From a virus, in IMG/VR virus record IMGVR_UViG_3300036766_002289, positions 28,056 to 92,055 of that record: a stretch of DNA of 64,000 bases, one strand, 5' to 3'. This document shows, one piece after another, positions 8,044 through 15,238 of this stretch. Both the position numbers and the translations under genes were made by a program. Under the pieces are notes generated by a model. It saw nothing but the letters and a program-made list of their open reading frames with translations, made no database searches and was not told where the DNA came from. Position 1 is the first letter of the stretch. Each line of letters begins with the position of its first letter.

Positions 8044-8343
8044 ATGGAAAGAAGAAAGCGTGATGCTCTATGGCATCGTAAGCAACACGAATCGGTAAAG
8101 ATCGAGATATTTAAAACGTTAGGGTCGAAGTGTAATATCTGTGGGTTTGATGATATTCGTGCTTTATGTATCGACCACATAAATGGCGGTGGTCTTTTAG
8201 AGAGGGCTAAACCAAAAGGCCAATATTACGTTGTGATCTGTAAGAAGTTAAGAGATAGTTGTGAAGATTACCAATTACTTTGTGCAAATTGTAACTTAAT
8301 TAAAAAGGTAGAGAGAAAAGAAGGACGTAAAAGGGTATACTGA
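8044..8343 (+). CDS. HNH endonuclease
   Basis: CNICGF..CIDHINGGG...LLCANCN HNH/Zn motif. Confidence 0.6.
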   Translation: MERRKRDALWHRKQHESVKIEIFKTLGSKCNICGFDDIRALCIDHINGGGLLERAKPKGQYYVVICKKLRDSCEDYQLLCANCNLIKKVERKEGRKRVY

Positions 8344-8821
8344 TACCAGGATGGAGAAGAAGAATCTCGCTTGGCTCATAACCAAGAGAACGGTGGTGCA
8401 AATCCATCTCCTGGAACTTTTAGAAGAATGCTCTCGTTGAGCATAGTTAGGATTTAAAAATGAACACTAATATCGTGAAACGCTGGTTTGGAATTAATGC
8501 TGTTAATCAACAGCCATGTGCCGCTGCGTTTACGGGTAAAACCCCCGTAGAACAGGGACATGATAATACAAAGCATCCTTGAGCGATGACGGCTCAGGGA
8601 TATAACCTGAGCCATACGGAAAGAACTAAAACCTTGGCTTGGGTTAAACACCTGAACCAAGGTTTTTTGTTTGCCGAAGGAAAAACCGACTGATAGACGT
8701 AACTCCCGTAATGTTCTATGACTTTACGGATCGGTGTTTTGAAAGTTGGACGCGGGGTCTTTGAAAATTTAATGAGAGTTCATGCCTGGCATTAAGTTGT
8801 TTAGGGTGAATTCTCTTGCAC

Positions 8822-8892
8822 GGGCGATTAGTTCACTGGTAGAATACCAGCCTGACGTGCTGAAGAAAAGGGTTCGATTCCCTTATTGCCCA
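8822..8892 (+). tRNA. tRNA-Val(GAC)
   Basis: Cloverleaf by eye: acceptor GGGCGAT/ATTGCCC, T-arm AAGGG-TTCGATT-CCCTT, anticodon loop CTGACGT. Confidence 0.6.
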
Positions 8893-8898
8893 CTATAT

Positions 8899-8973
8899 CA
8901 GGGATTAGCGCAGTTTGGCTAGCGCGCCTGCCTTGGACGCAGGAGGCCAAAGGTTCAAATCCTTTATCCCTGA
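8899..8973 (+). tRNA. tRNA-Pro(TGG)
   Basis: Acceptor CAGGGAT/ATCCCTG, D-stem GCGC, anticodon loop CTTGGAC, T-loop TTCAAAT. Confidence 0.6.
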
Positions 8974-8979
8974 CTTTAT

Positions 8980-9050
8980 TGAGGGTTCGTCTAATGGTAG
9001 GACGAGAGGCTTTGAACCTCTCTGTGGGCGTTCGACTCGCTCACCCTCAG
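8980..9050 (+). tRNA. tRNA-Gln(TTG)
   Basis: Acceptor TGAGGGT/ACCCTCA, anticodon loop CTTTGAA, T-loop TTCGACT. Confidence 0.55.
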
Positions 9051-9205
9051 CTATGGAAGAAAAACAATATTTATCTAATAGAGATAAAGTGCTTTCCCCA
9101 AGATTGGGAAAAGGATGGTGTATTTGCGATAGGGTTTACATAGGAAACTATGAAAAATGTCCTATATGCAAACGAAGAAACGGTAGAAGAAGATTAAAGA
9201 GGTAA

Positions 9206-9279
9206 CGGGCAATGGGCTAACGGTAAGCCGCCTACGTCGGAAGTAGGACAACATTTCGGTTCGAATCCGAATTGCCCGA
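9206..9279 (+). tRNA. tRNA-Pro(CGG)
   Basis: Acceptor CGGGCAA/TTGCCCG, D-stem GGCT/AGCC, anticodon loop GTCGGAA, T-arm TTCGG-TTCGAAT-CCGAA. Confidence 0.5.
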
Positions 9280-9375
9280 CTATAAAAGCCTGGATAAATC
9301 GAGGGCAAGGTGAACTGTCATGAGACATTACTCCTAAATGGTCCAGGTGATTCCAAAAGAATCCCCATACCCCGA

Positions 9376-9391
9376 TAGCTTAGTTGTACCA
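9376..9391 (+). promoter_or_regulatory. conserved motif TAGCTTAGTTGTACCA (copy 2)
   Basis: Exact 16-mer between two tRNA genes. Confidence 0.4.
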
Positions 9392-9401
9392 AGAACGTTT
9401 T

Positions 9402-9475
9402 CTGGCTGTGGGCTAATGGTAAGCCTCCTGCGTTGGAAGCAGGACATCATCTCAGTTCGACTCTGAGTAGCCAGA
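9402..9475 (+). tRNA. tRNA-Pro(TGG), paralogue of 9206-9279
   Basis: Acceptor CTGGCTG/TAGCCAG, same D-arm, anticodon loop GTTGGAA, 7-nt variable region ACATCAT. Confidence 0.5.
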
Positions 9476-9484
9476 CTGATTTAT

Positions 9485-13155: not shown

Positions 13156-13698
13156 ATGCCCTTAACTATGAAAAAGTGTAATAAATGTGGTCTAGAAAAA
13201 ACAGAATTTCATAAAAATACATCTTACTGTAAAGAGTGTAATATTGTTAGAGTTAAAGAGTGGGCAATACTTAATAAAGAAAAAATAACTAAAAACAGCG
13301 GTATCTATATAAAAGCTAAGCACTTTTTATTAAAGGCTATACTAGATGATATTAAACATGAGAATGGGTGTAGTTTTTGTGGAGAGAATGATGCGTGCTG
13401 TTTAGATTTTCATCATATTGCTAATAAATCTGATAATGTTTCTAAACTTCAACGAGATAAGAATGTTAAAAAGATTTGTGAAGAGTTGAATAAGTGTATC
13501 ATAGTATGCGCAAACTGTCATCGAAAATTACACGATGGGAAAATAAATATTGGCGTTAGAAAGCTATTTGACATTAGTTTAGAAGAATTTATTACTAGAG
13601 TAAGTAACAGAGCAGCAGAATTTCTTCCCGATGAAAAACGGGTTAGAAAATGGTTAATTGCTCCTAAAGCTGTAGCGGCACAAGCACCTGTCTCTTAA
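13156..13698 (+). CDS. HNH endonuclease
   Basis: CNKCG..CKECN Zn ribbon plus CLDFHH...CANCHRKLH; starts 6 nt after tRNA-Lys(CTT); its 3' end overlaps the next tRNA-like gene. Confidence 0.7.
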   Translation: MPLTMKKCNKCGLEKTEFHKNTSYCKECNIVRVKEWAILNKEKITKNSGIYIKAKHFLLKAILDDIKHENGCSFCGENDACCLDFHHIANKSDNVSKLQRDKNVKKICEELNKCIIVCANCHRKLHDGKINIGVRKLFDISLEEFITRVSNRAAEFLPDEKRVRKWLIAPKAVAAQAPVS

Positions 13699-13743
13699 AC
13701 AGGGGTCGTAATGACATTCCGAGTTCAAGTCTCGGTAGGGGCA
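13660..13743 (+). tRNA. atypical type-II-like tRNA (about 15-nt variable arm) with anticodon loop CTCTTAA (CTT)
   Basis: Acceptor GCTCCTA/TAGGGGC, anticodon arm CCTGT-CTCTTAA-ACAGG, variable arm GGTCGTAATGACATT, T-arm CCGAG-TTCAAGT-CTCGG. Confidence 0.4.
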
Positions 13744-13745
13744 CT

Positions 13746-13817
13746 GTGGGTGAAGCCAAACGGTGCGGCATCTGTGTGTGAATCAGAATATAATGGGTTC
13801 AACTCCCATCATCCACC
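13746..13817 (+). tRNA. tRNA-like gene, possible His(GTG) without G-1
   Basis: Acceptor GTGGGTG/CATCCAC, anticodon loop GTGTGAA, T-arm ATGGG-TTCAACT-CCCAT. Confidence 0.4.
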
Positions 13818-13818
13818 C

Positions 13819-14229
13819 TTAATCGTCGATTTCTTCTATGGTATGTTGCTCTGTGCGATTAGCATCATTGGCGGCTTTAGCAGCAAGTTCATGATATCTT
13901 TTTTTAAGTTTTTCGATTTCTTCTTCAGTGAGGTTTTCGATATGGAGCAAACGGTTACTAGCTCCTTTATGGGATACAAGTAATTCGTCTAACTTTAAAT
14001 GAAGTGCTATTTGCTCTTTATTTTGAGTTCTTTGAATAAGGAAGACCATTAAGAAGGTAATGATGGTGGTAAGGGTATTGATGAATAGGCTGTGAGAATC
14101 GCTCCAGTTGAAAAATGGACCTGAGCATAACCAGATAAGCACAATGAAAATGGCCATAATGAAGGCTGATGTACTGCCAGCCCAATTGGTTATCTTTTTG
14201 GCCATCAGTTCAAATTTGCTTATTCGCAC
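13819..14229 (-). CDS. small membrane protein with coiled-coil tail
   Basis: 136-aa ORF on the minus strand; two TM segments (AFIMAIFIVLIWL.., IITFLMVFLIQ) followed by a charged helical region. Confidence 0.5.
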   Translation of the reverse strand: MRISKFELMAKKITNWAGSTSAFIMAIFIVLIWLCSGPFFNWSDSHSLFINTLTTIITFLMVFLIQRTQNKEQIALHLKLDELLVSHKGASNRLLHIENLTEEEIEKLKKRYHELAAKAANDANRTEQHTIEEIDD

Positions 14230-14258
14230 GGTTTATATATGGTTAATAATTTTTAAAC

Positions 14259-14331
14259 GGGGAAGAAGCTCAGTTGGGAGAGCAACCGCCTGTCGAGCGG
14301 AAGGGTGCGGGTTCGACTCCCGTGTTCCTCG
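14259..14331 (+). tRNA. tRNA-Asp(GTC)
   Basis: D-arm GCTC-AGTTGGGA-GAGC, anticodon loop CTGTCGA, T-arm GCGGG-TTCGACT-CCCGT, G73. Confidence 0.55.
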
Positions 14332-14341
14332 CCTTATTTTT

Positions 14342-14433
14342 TGCGGTGTCATCTAATGGCAAGATACGGGTCTCAAGGGTCAAACAGCCCATAAATGAAG
14401 CCTGAAATGTAGGTTCGACTCCTACCGCCGTAA
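14342..14433 (+). tRNA. atypical long tRNA-like gene (92 nt; possible type-II or intron-containing; a CAA loop is present)
   Basis: Acceptor TGCGGTG/CGCCGTA, D-arm ATCT-AATGGCA-AGAT, T-arm GTAGG-TTCGACT-CCTAC; the anticodon arm could not be folded cleanly. Confidence 0.3.
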
Positions 14434-14518
14434 TTATAGACCGTAAGTATTGGTGTAAAAGAGCAGATTAAGTCTTCTCACGAAGCGTATAAGTCTCTTT
14501 AGCACAGCGGTCGCGTTT

Positions 14519-14593
14519 AGGATTGTGGGCCAGCCTGGAGTGGCCGTCTCCCTGTCACGGAGAAGATCGAGGGTTCAAATCCCTTCAATCCTG
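14519..14593 (+). tRNA. tRNA-Asp(GTC), second diverged copy
   Basis: Acceptor AGGATTG/CAATCCT, D-stem GGCC/GGCC, anticodon arm TCTCC-CTGTCAC-GGAGA, T-loop TTCAAAT. Confidence 0.5.
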
Positions 14594-14626
14594 CTGAAAT
14601 AAGTTGAACCTTACTCTATATATGGT

Positions 14627-15238
14627 ATGCCATATAAAGATAAGGTTAAGCAGAAAGAATTTTCAAAACGTCATTATTTGTTGAATAAGGAAGTTTATCA
14701 ACAATCCAGAAAACAAAATCGTAATAATCGCCATATTTGGTTCAATGGAGTAAAATCACAACTAAAATGTTGTCAATGTGGAGAAAACGATTATCGCTGT
14801 TTAGATTTTCACCATAGGGAATTTGAGGAAAAAGTATTTGGAATTTCTGAAGGTGTAAAATCAGGTTATAGTGAAGAGAAAATTATAAAAGAAATTTCTA
14901 AATGTGATGTGTTATGTGCTAATTGTCATAGGAAAAAACATGCAAGCGTAAGATTGCCTGCTGACGGGTACCACAGGGAACGAGTTGGCAAAAACATAAA
15001 ATGGCTAAGAGAATTTAAAAGAAAATTAAGTTGTGTTGATTGCGGCATAAAAGATGAATTTGTTCTAGATTTTCATCATCTTCGAGATAAAGATGATACT
15101 ATTTGTAGATTAGCGGGAAATGGTTGTTCCGTCGAACGACTCTTAGAAGAAATTGCTAAATGCGAGGTTATATGTGCTAATTGCCATAGAAAGCGACATA
15201 ATGGTAATGTATGGTCTGAAGATTCAGTGAAAAATTAG
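14627..15238 (+). CDS. tandem double HNH endonuclease
   Basis: Two consecutive CLDFHH....C.NCHRK.H modules in one ORF. Confidence 0.7.
   Translation: MPYKDKVKQKEFSKRHYLLNKEVYQQSRKQNRNNRHIWFNGVKSQLKCCQCGENDYRCLDFHHREFEEKVFGISEGVKSGYSEEKIIKEISKCDVLCANCHRKKHASVRLPADGYHRERVGKNIKWLREFKRKLSCVDCGIKDEFVLDFHHLRDKDDTICRLAGNGCSVERLLEEIAKCEVICANCHRKRHNGNVWSEDSVKN

What the first reader, a model, noticed from the sequence alone, without database searches (positions are those of the whole stretch)
8044..15238. tRNA genes interleaved with a paralogous HNH endonuclease family whose ORFs abut or overlap tRNA ends
There are six HNH ORFs in 7 kb (8044, 10009, 11442, 13156, 14627 as a tandem double, plus a seventh at 34683) sharing a Zn-ribbon plus CLDFHH..C.NCHRK.H architecture. 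Each sits directly against a tRNA gene. HNH 10009-10449 runs 27 nt into tRNA-Lys(TTT) at 10423. HNH 11442 starts 4 nt after tRNA-Glu. HNH 13156 starts 6 nt after tRNA-Lys(CTT), and its 3' end overlaps the next tRNA-like gene at 13660. This looks like homing endonucleases that target, or are mobilised with, tRNA genes, which would explain how the redundant tRNA set was assembled. A tRNA/HNH cassette as a self-spreading unit is not a standard annotation category.
Basis: partly seen in the sequence, partly recalled or inferred. Interest (0 to 1): 0.75.

Follow-up and report, generated by a model that had tools for sequence, protein, structure and literature searches.

The report
Homing endonuclease genes between phage tRNAs
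Five selfish HNH nuclease genes are wedged flush against tRNA genes in the tRNA array of a roughly 590-kb uncultured phage; close relatives lack them at the same spots, so they are mobile, which is a real but already described kind of element (phage T4 SegB, T5, Cluster M mycobacteriophages).

Summary
Five ORFs carrying six HNH domains lie in 8044-15238. Each sits 0-32 nt from a same-strand tRNA, and two run 27 and 39 nt into the next tRNA. A sixth ORF (34683) is not tRNA-linked. Placement is non-random (about 0.04 per ORF by random placement; Fisher p=0.0015).

Related contigs show reciprocal presence and absence with sharp boundaries:
- A 295-nt insert (8040-8334) lies between a conserved promoter and tRNA-Met. 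It is absent from four relatives.
- A 401-nt insert (11440-11840) lies between tRNA-Glu and the ribosome-binding site of the next gene.
- Relative L036 carries a different HNH gene at a Pro/Pro junction that is empty in the window.

The genes are AT-rich and only 35-44% identical to each other. Homologues abut tRNAs in unrelated phages and in an archaeal virus. These include KIL1 (its siblings KIL2/4/5 lack the gene), PegLeg and HGTV-1.

Best reading: free-standing homing endonuclease genes that settle at tRNA borders, as with T4 SegB, T5 F-Tfl and the Cluster M HNHs. Nuclease activity and cleavage sites are untested.

The claim that cassette copying built the redundant tRNA set is not supported, because isoacceptor duplicates are only about 60-79% identical.

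Verdict: new member of a known kind, modest interest.

The parts
8007..8036 (+). Sigma-70-like promoter (TTGCAA-18-TATATT). In HNH-less relatives it lies about 13 nt before tRNA-Met. In the window the HNH ATG (8044) follows the -10 box by about 7 nt.
   Evidence: Promoter scan. Block conserved in L036, L037, L042 and L038.
8044..8343 (+). HNH ORF of 99 aa, divergent (CIDH...CANCN, no zinc ribbon). It lies in a 295-nt insert (8040-8334) that is absent from four relatives. Its stop is 1 nt before tRNA-Met.
   Evidence: (phrog_2255, 7e-11).
8345..8417 (+). tRNA(CAT) directly downstream of HNH 8044. It is orthologous (89-90%) to the tRNA-Met of HNH-less relatives, but carries a compensatory swap of two acceptor-stem pairs found only in the HNH-plus allele.
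9880..9952 (+). tRNA-Gly(TCC), 56 nt upstream of HNH 10009.
10009..10449 (+). HNH ORF of 146 aa (zinc ribbon, helical linker, CxxC-HNH). The conserved end ...CHRKLHAG lies 12 nt before the tRNA. The last 9 codons and the stop are read from the tRNA-Lys sequence.
10423..10495 (+). tRNA-Lys(TTT), overlapped by 27 nt by the HNH tail. It is 100% identical to L036 tRNA-Lys 9461-9533. Homology with L036 starts 5 nt before the tRNA.
11366..11439 (+). tRNA-Glu(TTC). Its 3' acceptor strand holds GAGGT, 6 nt before the HNH ATG.
11442..11909 (+). HNH ORF of 155 aa. It lies in a 401-nt insert (11440-11840) between the tRNA-Glu 3' end and the AGGAG ribosome-binding site of the next gene. In L036 that spacer is 12 nt. 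The ORF tail reads on across the start of the next gene.
   Evidence: (1.5e-29).
11841..12544 (+). Host-phage gene displaced by the insert: AGGAG at 11841, ATG at 11854. It is frameshifted at the T-run 11912-11914 relative to the 229-aa L036 orthologue. The rest of the gene is called as 11996-12544.
13079..13151 (+). tRNA-Lys(CTT), 4 nt upstream of the HNH 13156 ATG. Homology with L036 tRNA-Lys(CTT) ends at 13155.
13156..13698 (+). HNH ORF of 180 aa with an extra C-terminal extension of about 50 aa. Its last 39 nt overlap the next tRNA-like gene.
   Evidence: (2e-26).
13660..13744 (+). tRNA-like gene of 85 nt with a long variable arm and anticodon CTT. It is followed 1 nt later by tRNA-His 13746-13817, which ARAGORN missed.
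14519..14594 (+). tRNA-Asp(GTC), 32 nt upstream of the double HNH.
14627..15238 (+). Double-HNH ORF of 203 aa. A full unit without zinc ribbon (residues 1-112) is fused in frame to a 5'-truncated second unit (113-203). The two are 44% identical, so this is a fusion of distinct lineages, not a recent duplication.
   Evidence: (8e-40, two stretches).
34683..35165 (+). Sixth family member (N-terminal HTH-like region, zinc ribbon, HNH). It is not next to a tRNA; the nearest ends at 33259.

Best explanation
The ORFs are free-standing HNH (beta-beta-alpha-Me) homing endonuclease genes. They belong to one old family that is widespread in viruses, and they have settled independently in the spacers of this huge phage's tRNA array.

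Shown by comparison:
- Each gene is a compact insert of little more than the ORF. It sits 0-10 nt upstream of a tRNA 5' end or 2-4 nt downstream of a tRNA 3' end.
- Related phages have the same tRNA junctions empty, or have a different family member at another junction.

Inferred by analogy with T4 SegB, T5 F-Tfl and free-standing homing endonucleases in general:
- During co-infection the enzyme nicks or cuts the HNH-less allele near the junction, probably reading part of the conserved tRNA gene.
- Recombinational repair from the HNH-plus genome then copies in the gene and a variable stretch of flanking tRNA DNA. Over time this shuffles and exchanges tRNA alleles between phages.

Also inferred:
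- The genes have no transcription or translation signals of their own. They ride on the tRNA operon transcript.
- Their start signals lie in a host-phage promoter (8044) or inside the preceding tRNA acceptor stem (11442, 13156). Some of their stop codons lie inside the next tRNA (10009, 13156).
- tRNA processing by RNase P and 3' trimming should therefore cut off the ribosome-binding site or the stop codon and keep nuclease levels low. This was proposed for segB.
For: (1) HNH identity
- PHROG HNH hits.
- Invariant CxxC...H...CxNCH columns across 48 homologues.
- AF2 model with pLDDT 94.8.

(2) Mobility in this lineage
- Window 8040-8334 is replaced by 3-5 nt in L036, L037, L042 and L038.
- Window 11440-11840 is replaced by a 12-nt spacer in L036.
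- Homology with L036 resumes 5 nt before tRNA-Lys 10423 and stops 1 nt before the ATG at 13156.
- The L036 HNH 8346-8699 is absent from window 9281-9401 and from L042.

(3) Foreign composition
- The five array HNH ORFs have GC of 29.6-37.0% (34683: 33.1%), against 38.8 +/- 3.5% for other ORFs.

(4) Separate lineages
- Paralogues are 35-44% identical, while 11442 is 48% identical to an IMG/VR homologue.

(5) Family-wide tRNA linkage
- All 12 IMG/VR loci that have any tRNA within 5 kb have the HNH 0-87 nt from a same-strand tRNA.
- In 7 of them the ORF tail overlaps the tRNA by 10-48 nt.
- The random-placement product over 10 loci is 1.5e-13.
- The same architecture occurs in KIL1, PegLeg gp96 and gp102 and the archaeal virus HGTV-1 gp264.

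(6) Family-wide mobility
- KIL1, KIL3 and KIL3b carry the gene. KIL2, KIL4 and KIL5, with flanks 98.6-99.3% identical, lack it.
- L046 and L047 share only a 666-nt HNH + tRNA-Asp block. Its HNH CDS has 7 synonymous and 0 non-synonymous differences.

(7) Precedent
- T5 hegC and hegD overlap tRNAs by 14 and 23 nt.
Against: - No enzymatic evidence exists. Cleavage, its site and whether a tRNA sequence is recognised are all inferred.
- Pfam HNH is below threshold, and Foldseek against the PDB found nothing significant.
- 20 of 32 IMG/VR homologues have no tRNA within 5 kb, and 34683 is not tRNA-linked. The family is therefore not strictly tRNA-specific.
- tRNA arrays could simply be permissive, highly transcribed landing sites.
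- No relatives were found that cover the 14627 site. The 10009 and 13156 sites are compared across a rearranged array order.
- 8044 has N in place of the last His and may be inactive.
- The processing-based control of expression is untested.
Confidence: 0.78

Rival explanations
1. Permissive landing pad. The ORFs are mobile HNH genes, but they accumulate in tRNA arrays only because the short non-coding spacers tolerate insertions and supply transcription. The enzymes do not recognise tRNA gene sequence, and tRNAs are not co-mobilised in any regular way.
For: - 20 of 32 homologous loci have no tRNA nearby, and 34683 is not tRNA-linked.
- Neighbouring tRNA isotypes are heterogeneous even among the closest homologues of 10009 (Thr, Leu, Lys, Gly).
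- At 8044 the adjacent tRNA stays orthologous to that of HNH-less relatives.
- Other endonuclease families (LAGLIDADG in HGTV-1; the T5 heg family, which is unrelated by BLAST) also sit in tRNA arrays.
Against: - Junctions are flush to within 0-10 nt of tRNA ends in many unrelated viruses. That precision is more than tolerance alone predicts.
- The block shared by L046 and L047 ends exactly at the tRNA-Asp 3' end.
- SegB does recognise a tRNA T-psi-C motif (PMC2330249).
Confidence: 0.15
2. An HNH-plus-tRNA cassette is a self-copying unit, and its spread within this genome built the redundant tRNA set.
For: - The array holds many isoacceptor duplicates.
- tRNA order differs between the window and L036. 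The HNH-linked tRNA-Lys 10423 has moved relative to its partner and is 100% identical to the L036 copy.
- An HNH + tRNA-Asp block is shared by two unrelated contigs.
Against: - Duplicated isoacceptors are only about 60-79% identical, no more than unrelated tRNAs.
- HNH paralogues are 35-44% identical.
- The tRNAs next to the HNHs are of different isotypes and are not paralogous to each other.
- HNH 8044 and 11442 went in as bare ORFs without bringing a new tRNA at the junction.
Confidence: 0.07
3. Domesticated or decayed genes. The HNH ORFs are no longer mobile. They either serve the phage (nicking, recombination, host DNA degradation) or are decaying remnants, and the overlaps are leftovers without function.
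For: - 8044 lacks the final His and the zinc ribbon.
- 14627 is a fusion with a truncated second unit.
- No strong ribosome-binding sites lie before 8044, 10009 or 14627.
Against: - All metal-binding and catalytic columns are intact in five of the six ORFs.
- Presence and absence among relatives shows recent gain or loss.
- There is purifying selection in a family member (7 synonymous, 0 non-synonymous).
Confidence: 0.1
4. Annotation artefact. The ORF/tRNA overlaps are start or stop miscalls, and the ORFs are chance reading frames.
For: the ORF listing is purely mechanical. Several spurious ORFs do overlap tRNAs (for example 8915-9205 and 13711-13983).
Against: - Profile hits reach 1e-26 to 1e-40, and there are more than 130 database homologues.
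- There is no in-frame stop before 10447 or 13696.
- The same overlaps are annotated in KIL1, PegLeg and T5.
Confidence: 0.02

Closest known systems
T4 SegB (GIY-YIG free-standing homing endonuclease in the T4 tRNA gene cluster; PMC2330249)
   Same: - A free-standing endonuclease gene inside a phage tRNA cluster.
- Absent from close relatives (T2L, RB1, RB3).
- Homes with flanking tRNA genes.
- Its ORF end is flush with a tRNA, so tRNA maturation cuts the transcript at the stop codon.
   Different: - A different nuclease fold (GIY-YIG rather than HNH).
- One gene rather than five.
- SegB activity and homing are shown experimentally. Here they are only inferred.
T5 F-TflI/II/IV, the heg genes of the T5 tRNA region (Akulenko 2004, cited in PMC2330249; NC_005859)
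   Same: - Several HNH endonuclease genes interleaved with tRNAs on the same strand.
- hegC and hegD tails overlap the next tRNA by 14 and 23 nt.
- hegA starts 23 nt after a tRNA.
   Different: - No BLAST similarity to the window proteins, except a weak hegA-34683 match (1e-5).
- The record annotates hegC and hegD with InterPro domains IPR002711 and IPR010902. No zinc-ribbon/CxxC-HNH build like that of the window proteins shows up in the comparison.
HNH genes of Cluster M mycobacteriophage tRNA arrays (PegLeg gp96 and gp102; Pope 2014, as cited in PMC5966550 and PMC6409571)
   Same: - The same protein family: PegLeg gp102 region, 34% identity, E 2e-12, 83% coverage.
- The same layout: gp96 lies 3 nt after tRNA-Gln and 3 nt before tRNA-Tyr, and gp102 overlaps tRNA-Met by 10 nt.
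- Already implicated in tRNA repertoire diversity.
   Different: - An actinobacteriophage of 81 kb with high GC, against a 590-kb uncultured phage with 39.7% GC.
- Two genes rather than five, and no double-HNH fusion reported.
Same-family HNH genes in other tRNA-rich viruses (Pseudomonas phage KIL1, Felix O1-like and PAK_P1-like phages, crAss001, Streptomyces 130-kb phages, haloarchaeal HGTV-1)
   Same: - 31-46% identity.
- Flush or overlapping tRNA junctions.
- Presence/absence polymorphism among KIL siblings.
   Different: - Usually one or two copies per genome.
- The records annotate them simply as HNH endonuclease or hypothetical protein.

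Membership tests
HNH / His-Me finger (beta-beta-alpha-Me) endonuclease superfamily | Catalytic His at the end of beta-1, followed by conserved Asn and His/Asn on the alpha helix | tested here: met
   H94, N128 and H130 are invariant, and H134 nearly invariant, in 48 sequences and in the 17-sequence alignment. 8044 has N in place of the last His (an HNN variant).
HNH / His-Me finger (beta-beta-alpha-Me) endonuclease superfamily | Two CxxC pairs forming the structural zinc site around the motif (zinc-finger type HNH) | tested here: met
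   C79, C82 and C126 are invariant and C129 is nearly invariant (90% or more).
HNH / His-Me finger (beta-beta-alpha-Me) endonuclease superfamily | Significant match to curated HNH profiles | tested here: inconclusive
   PHROG HNH families hit at 7e-11 to 8e-40. Pfam PF01844 reaches only 14.7-15.5 bits against a cut-off of 21.4. NCBIfam gives no HNH-family hit (only a sub-threshold IS630 match for 34683). A PDB profile search finds McrA at E 0.005.
HNH / His-Me finger (beta-beta-alpha-Me) endonuclease superfamily | Beta-beta-alpha-metal fold | tested here: met
HNH / His-Me finger (beta-beta-alpha-Me) endonuclease superfamily | Metal-dependent DNA nicking or cleavage | not testable with these tools
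   Needs purified protein.
Free-standing phage homing endonuclease genes (Seg/Mob/F-Tfl type) | Intergenic, self-contained ORF that is not inside an intron or intein | tested here: met
   The inserts lie between a promoter and a tRNA, between tRNAs, or between a tRNA and the next gene.
Free-standing phage homing endonuclease genes (Seg/Mob/F-Tfl type) | Presence/absence polymorphism among close relatives, with boundaries at the ORF ends | tested here: met
   Window against L036, L037, L042 and L038. KIL1/3/3b against KIL2/4/5 for a homologue.
Free-standing phage homing endonuclease genes (Seg/Mob/F-Tfl type) | Patchy horizontal distribution: the same gene in otherwise unrelated genomes | tested here: met
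   L046 and L047 share only the 666-nt HNH + tRNA-Asp block. Window paralogues are as close to foreign homologues as to each other.
Free-standing phage homing endonuclease genes (Seg/Mob/F-Tfl type) | Site-specific cleavage of the endonuclease-less allele near the insertion site | not testable with these tools
   Needs in vitro cleavage mapping on L036-type junction DNA.
Free-standing phage homing endonuclease genes (Seg/Mob/F-Tfl type) | Biased (super-Mendelian) inheritance with co-conversion of flanks in mixed infection | not testable with these tools
   This phage is uncultured. KIL1 x KIL2 would serve as a model cross.
T5 heg / F-Tfl proteins | Sequence homology to T5 hegA, hegC or hegD | tested here: not met
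   BLASTP finds no hits, except hegA against 34683 at 1e-5 and 23% identity. This is analogy, not orthology.
T4 SegB (GIY-YIG) | GIY-YIG catalytic domain | tested here: not met
   All profile and fold matches are to HNH nucleases. No GIY-YIG hit was found.
HNH family of Cluster M mycobacteriophage tRNA arrays (PegLeg gp102) | Sequence homology plus a tRNA-flush position | tested here: met
   tblastn of 11442 against PegLeg 57815-58207: 34% identity, E 2e-12, 83% coverage. gp102 overlaps tRNA-Met by 10 nt, and gp96 is flush on both sides.

The most novel reading that the evidence does not exclude
This zinc-ribbon/CxxC-HNH family (phrog_2255-like) may be a lineage of homing endonucleases, spread across viruses of bacteria and archaea, that is specialised for tRNA gene borders. 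Under this reading its members read conserved tRNA gene features. They insert flush with tRNA ends so that tRNA processing controls their own expression. By co-converting neighbouring tRNAs they would be a main driver of how viral tRNA arrays are assembled, shuffled and exchanged, from mycobacteriophages and crAss-like phages to haloarchaeal viruses and 600-kb phages.
Probability: 0.35. Interest if true: 0.55.

Novelty: new member of a known kind. Interest (0 to 1): 0.3.

Why it matters
For this genome, the result explains several oddities of the tRNA array. These are the ORFs that overlap tRNAs, the AT-rich islands, the tRNA order that differs from relatives, and a frameshifted neighbouring gene. 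All fit the footprint of selfish endonuclease genes rather than a new system.

More generally, one HNH family recurs at tRNA borders in very different viruses, often with the ORF tail running into the tRNA. If these enzymes do recognise tRNA genes, they would be a simple, testable mechanism for horizontal exchange and diversification of viral tRNA repertoires. They would also be a source of nicking or cleaving enzymes with long, conserved targets.

The window and L036 pair, and the cultured KIL1 and KIL2 pair, offer ready-made plus and minus alleles for such tests.

Tried and rejected
- Megablast of 8000-15300 against INPHARED found no match.
- IMG/VR scans with the flanking proteins 6921-7787, 11996-12544 and 4246-5193 found no relatives. 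Relatives came only from Logan and JGI through the protein search.
- The homologue search with 11996-12544 returned only the source contig and L036. No further relatives cover the 11442 junction, and none cover 14627.
- The metagenome scan with the iron-permease-like protein returned homologues of at most 58% identity, none a close relative of the phage. The 13 loci checked carry no tRNAs.
It was redone with database homologues.
- Pope et al. 2014 could not be read. It is cited only through PMC5966550 and PMC6409571.
- I considered isotype specificity of HNH clades. The homologue of 10009 in L045 also sits by tRNA-Lys(TTT), and several cultured hits sit by tRNA-Lys. Other equally close homologues sit by Thr, Leu and Gly, so this is not established.
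- I considered orthology with the T5 heg proteins and rejected it.
- I considered whether L036 tRNA-Pro 8703 corresponds to window 13660-13744, since both follow an HNH and precede tRNA-His. They do not match.

Full report
**What is there**

The window is phage-like. It has 39.7% GC and nearly all genes lie on the + strand. An identical flanking protein is on record from a JGI contig of 590,099 bp, so the source is a huge uncultured phage. It has no close relative in INPHARED or IMG/VR.

ARAGORN finds 39 tRNAs. Rfam adds two more: 13746-13817, which is a tRNA-His, and 14342-14433. Of the 41, 27 lie between 8.3 and 14.6 kb.

- Five of them hit each other by phmmer.
- All six hit PHROG HNH families 2255/3106, at 7e-11 to 8e-40.
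- Pfam HNH stays below its cut-off, and NCBIfam has no HNH-family match.
- An alignment with 42 database homologues shows invariant CxxC...H...K...E...C...CxNCH columns.
- An AlphaFold model of 10009 is confident (pLDDT 94.8).

I therefore accept that these are HNH nuclease genes. Activity is untested.

**Junctions**

From:
- 8044-8343 stops 1 nt before tRNA-Met.
- 10009-10449 has no in-frame stop until 27 nt into tRNA-Lys(TTT). Its conserved end (...CHRKLHAG) lies 12 nt before the tRNA.
- 11442 starts 2 nt after tRNA-Glu.
- 13156 starts 4 nt after tRNA-Lys(CTT) and ends 39 nt inside the tRNA-like gene 13660-13744.
- 14627 starts 32 nt after tRNA-Asp.
- 34683 is 1.4 kb from any tRNA.

The "six ORFs" are five ORFs with six domains. 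The zinc ribbon is missing from 8044 and 14627.

The association is beyond chance. Five of six HNH ORFs abut a tRNA, against 13 of 77 other ORFs (Fisher p=0.0015). Random placement gives about 0.04 for each of the five.

**Relatives give a natural experiment**

The protein upstream of the array (6921-7787) has homologues of 52-76% identity on short Logan, JGI and ENA contigs. L036, L037, L042 and L038 carry syntenic starts of the array.

- *Site 8044.* The relatives share a conserved promoter (TTGCAA-18-TATATT) that lies about 13 nt before tRNA-Met. In the window, 295 nt (8040-8334) sit between that promoter and the tRNA. These 295 nt are essentially the HNH ORF and nothing else.
- *Site 11442.* In L036, tRNA-Glu is followed after 12 nt (AGGAGATAGAA) by the ATG of a 229-aa gene. 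In the window, 401 nt (11440-11840) are inserted between the tRNA 3' end and the same AGGAG. The HNH frame then runs on across the start of that gene.
- *Sites 10009 and 13156.* Homology with L036 resumes 5 nt before tRNA-Lys 10423, and it stops 1 nt before the ATG at 13156. The tRNA order differs around these two sites.
- *The reverse case.* L036 has a 117-aa HNH gene (45% identical to 14627) that ends 3 nt before its tRNA-Pro(TGG). The corresponding Pro(CGG)-Pro(TGG) spacer in the window and in L042 is empty.

This is reciprocal presence and absence with boundaries at the ORF ends.

**Not a recent internal expansion**

- The paralogues are 35-44% identical to each other. That is no closer than to homologues in unrelated IMG/VR phages, where 11442 is 48% identical to L001.
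- The two halves of 14627 are 44% identical.
- The HNH genes are AT-rich: 29.6-37% GC against 38.8 +/- 3.5% for other ORFs.
- The duplicated isoacceptors of the array are only about 60-79% identical, like unrelated tRNAs.

So the data do not support the idea that copying of an HNH/tRNA cassette within this genome created the redundancy.

**The family elsewhere**

- *IMG/VR.* Of 32 IMG/VR loci with a homologue of 11442, 12 have a tRNA within 5 kb. In all 12 the HNH lies 0-87 nt from a same-strand tRNA. In seven, the ORF tail overlaps the tRNA 5' end by 10-48 nt. The random-placement product over 10 loci is 1.5e-13.
- *Cultured viruses.* The family occurs almost only in tRNA-rich groups. These are Felix O1-like and PAK_P1-like phages, KIL phages, crAss001-like phages, Streptomyces 130-kb phages, Cluster C and M mycobacteriophages and haloarchaeal viruses.
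- *Same architecture.* KIL1 HNH overlaps tRNA-Thr by 10 nt. PegLeg gp96 is flush with tRNA-Gln and tRNA-Tyr, and gp102 overlaps tRNA-Met by 10 nt. HGTV-1 gp264 lies 1 nt after tRNA-Ala and 3 nt before tRNA-Phe.
- *Sibling polymorphism.* KIL1, KIL3 and KIL3b have the gene. KIL2, KIL4 and KIL5, whose flanks are 98.6-99.3% identical, lack it.
- *A shared block.* Two otherwise unalignable contigs (L046, L047) share only a 666-nt block. It begins about 165 nt upstream of the HNH start, spans the HNH gene and tRNA-Asp, and stops about 5 nt past the tRNA-Asp 3' end. The HNH CDS in that block has 7 synonymous and 0 non-synonymous differences.

That last case shows that a neighbouring tRNA can travel with the gene, and that the protein is under purifying selection. 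Against strict tRNA specificity, 20 of the 32 IMG/VR loci have no tRNA nearby.

**How it most likely works**

Shown: these are compact, compositionally foreign HNH genes inserted flush with tRNA ends, and they are polymorphic among relatives.

Inferred from established knowledge of free-standing homing endonucleases, and specifically from T4 SegB (PMC2330249):
- In mixed infection the enzyme cuts or nicks the HNH-less allele close to the junction.
- Repair copies in the gene together with flanking DNA.
- SegB recognises a 27-bp site containing the conserved tRNA T-psi-C motif. It drives nearly 100% inheritance of itself, with loss of the T2L tRNA-region markers.

Also inferred, on expression:
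- The genes use borrowed signals. These are the array promoter for 8044 (ATG about 7 nt after the -10 box, so leaderless-like), GAGGT and GGGGG inside the preceding tRNA acceptor strand for 11442 and 13156, and stop codons inside the next tRNA for 10009 and 13156.
- tRNA maturation should then remove the ribosome-binding site or the stop codon and keep expression low. The SegB paper describes exactly this for segB and proposes it for the T5 enzymes.

A suggestive detail is that the HNH-plus tRNA-Met allele alone carries a compensatory swap of two acceptor-stem pairs next to the insert. This could be target-site immunity, but it is a single lineage.

**Comparison with what is known**

The functional analogues are the following.
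- *T4 SegB.* It has a GIY-YIG domain, so a different fold.
- *T5 heg/F-Tfl genes.* In the T5 record, hegC and hegD overlap tRNAs by 14 and 23 nt. They are not homologous to the window proteins by BLAST.
- *Cluster M HNH genes.* These are true family members. Two surveys of tRNA arrays say they were implicated in tRNA repertoire diversity (PMC5966550, PMC6409571).

The finding is therefore a clean, multi-copy new example of a known kind in a huge phage. What may be under-appreciated is how widely this one HNH family is tied to tRNA borders, across bacterial and archaeal viruses, and how often its ORF runs into the tRNA.

**Verdict**

- Observation: confirmed.
- Interpretation: partly supported. 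Mobile, tRNA-border homing genes: yes. Origin of the tRNA redundancy and the claimed novelty: no.
- Novelty: new member of a known kind.
- Interest: 0.3.

Noticed in passing
window 14341-14434; L038 8150-8244: Two tRNAs of this phage lineage carry short hairpin insertions in the anticodon loop. The window tRNA (Rfam 43.4 bits) has about 21 nt, and ARAGORN -i calls it Leu(cag) with an intron at position 36. The tRNA-Met of L038 has 22 nt that its orthologues in the window, L036 and L042 lack. Both inserts fold as a 4-5 bp stem with an AAAC-containing loop. They are far too short for group I introns, and their nature is unknown.
   Followed up: partly
window 13660-13744: An 85-nt tRNA-like gene with a long (type II-like) variable arm but a Lys anticodon (CTT). 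It folds as a cloverleaf (Rfam 43.4 bits) and is overlapped by the tail of HNH 13156.
   Followed up: partly
window 7894, 9376, 12747, 19179 (+ strand): The 16-mer TAGCTTAGTTGTACCA occurs four times exactly, against 0.62 matches expected at up to 3 mismatches. It is conserved at the same places in L036 and L042, after a terminator or a tRNA and before tRNAs or genes. It is a candidate phage-specific promoter or regulatory site.
   Followed up: partly
window 11854-12544: The gene downstream of HNH 11442 is frameshifted by one extra T (T-run 11912-11914) relative to the 229-aa L036 orthologue. This splits off its first 20 codons. An independent Logan assembly from one run (L035) has the same gene call. 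It could be a real pseudogene or restart, or an error, and it lies right next to the insert.
   Followed up: partly
window 13819-14229 (- strand): A low-affinity iron permease gene (Pfam PF04120, 1.2e-45) sits on the opposite strand in the middle of the tRNA array. A copy 60% identical in protein lies near an HNH gene in another huge-phage contig (L045, 686 kb). Other homologues are 45-58% identical and come from contigs without tRNAs.
   Followed up: partly
window 10418-10496 vs L036 9456-9534: tRNA-Lys(TTT), next to HNH 10009, is 100% identical over 79 nt to the L036 copy. Other orthologous tRNAs are 73-93% identical. The two Lys(TTT) genes are also in swapped order in the two phages. This may be recent exchange or strong constraint.
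   Followed up: no
window 8345-8417: The HNH-plus tRNA(CAT) allele has two adjacent acceptor-stem pairs swapped (AG...CT to GA...TC) relative to all three aligned HNH-less alleles. This may be a change that protects the target site from cleavage.
   Followed up: partly
window 9054-9205: A small ORF of about 50 aa (MEEKQYLSNRDK...CPICKRR, with a CxC...CxxC motif) fills the spacer between tRNA-Gln and tRNA-Pro(CGG), flush on both sides. The region is 74% identical in DNA to L042.
   Followed up: no
L046 3836-4499 vs L047 3836-4500: A 666-nt HNH + tRNA-Asp block is the only DNA shared by two different phage contigs. Upstream of the HNH it contains a tRNA-like remnant (CCCCGTC...ACGGGGTACCA).
   Followed up: partly
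window 13746-13817: A second tRNA-His(GTG) was missed by ARAGORN because of a mismatch in the anticodon stem. It is the orthologue of L036 tRNA-His 8781-8853.
   Followed up: yes
window 2246-6858 and relatives L036, L040: The genes upstream of the array include a ThiF-like E1 (L034 2456-3103 = window 5238-5885) and a SIMPL-domain protein (6175-6858), from the Pfam marks on the called genes. Syntenic relatives carry a Prok-JAB gene a few genes upstream of ThiF, which may be a ubiquitin-like conjugation module. L040 and L041 carry a SET-domain gene directly before the conserved 288-aa gene.
   Followed up: no
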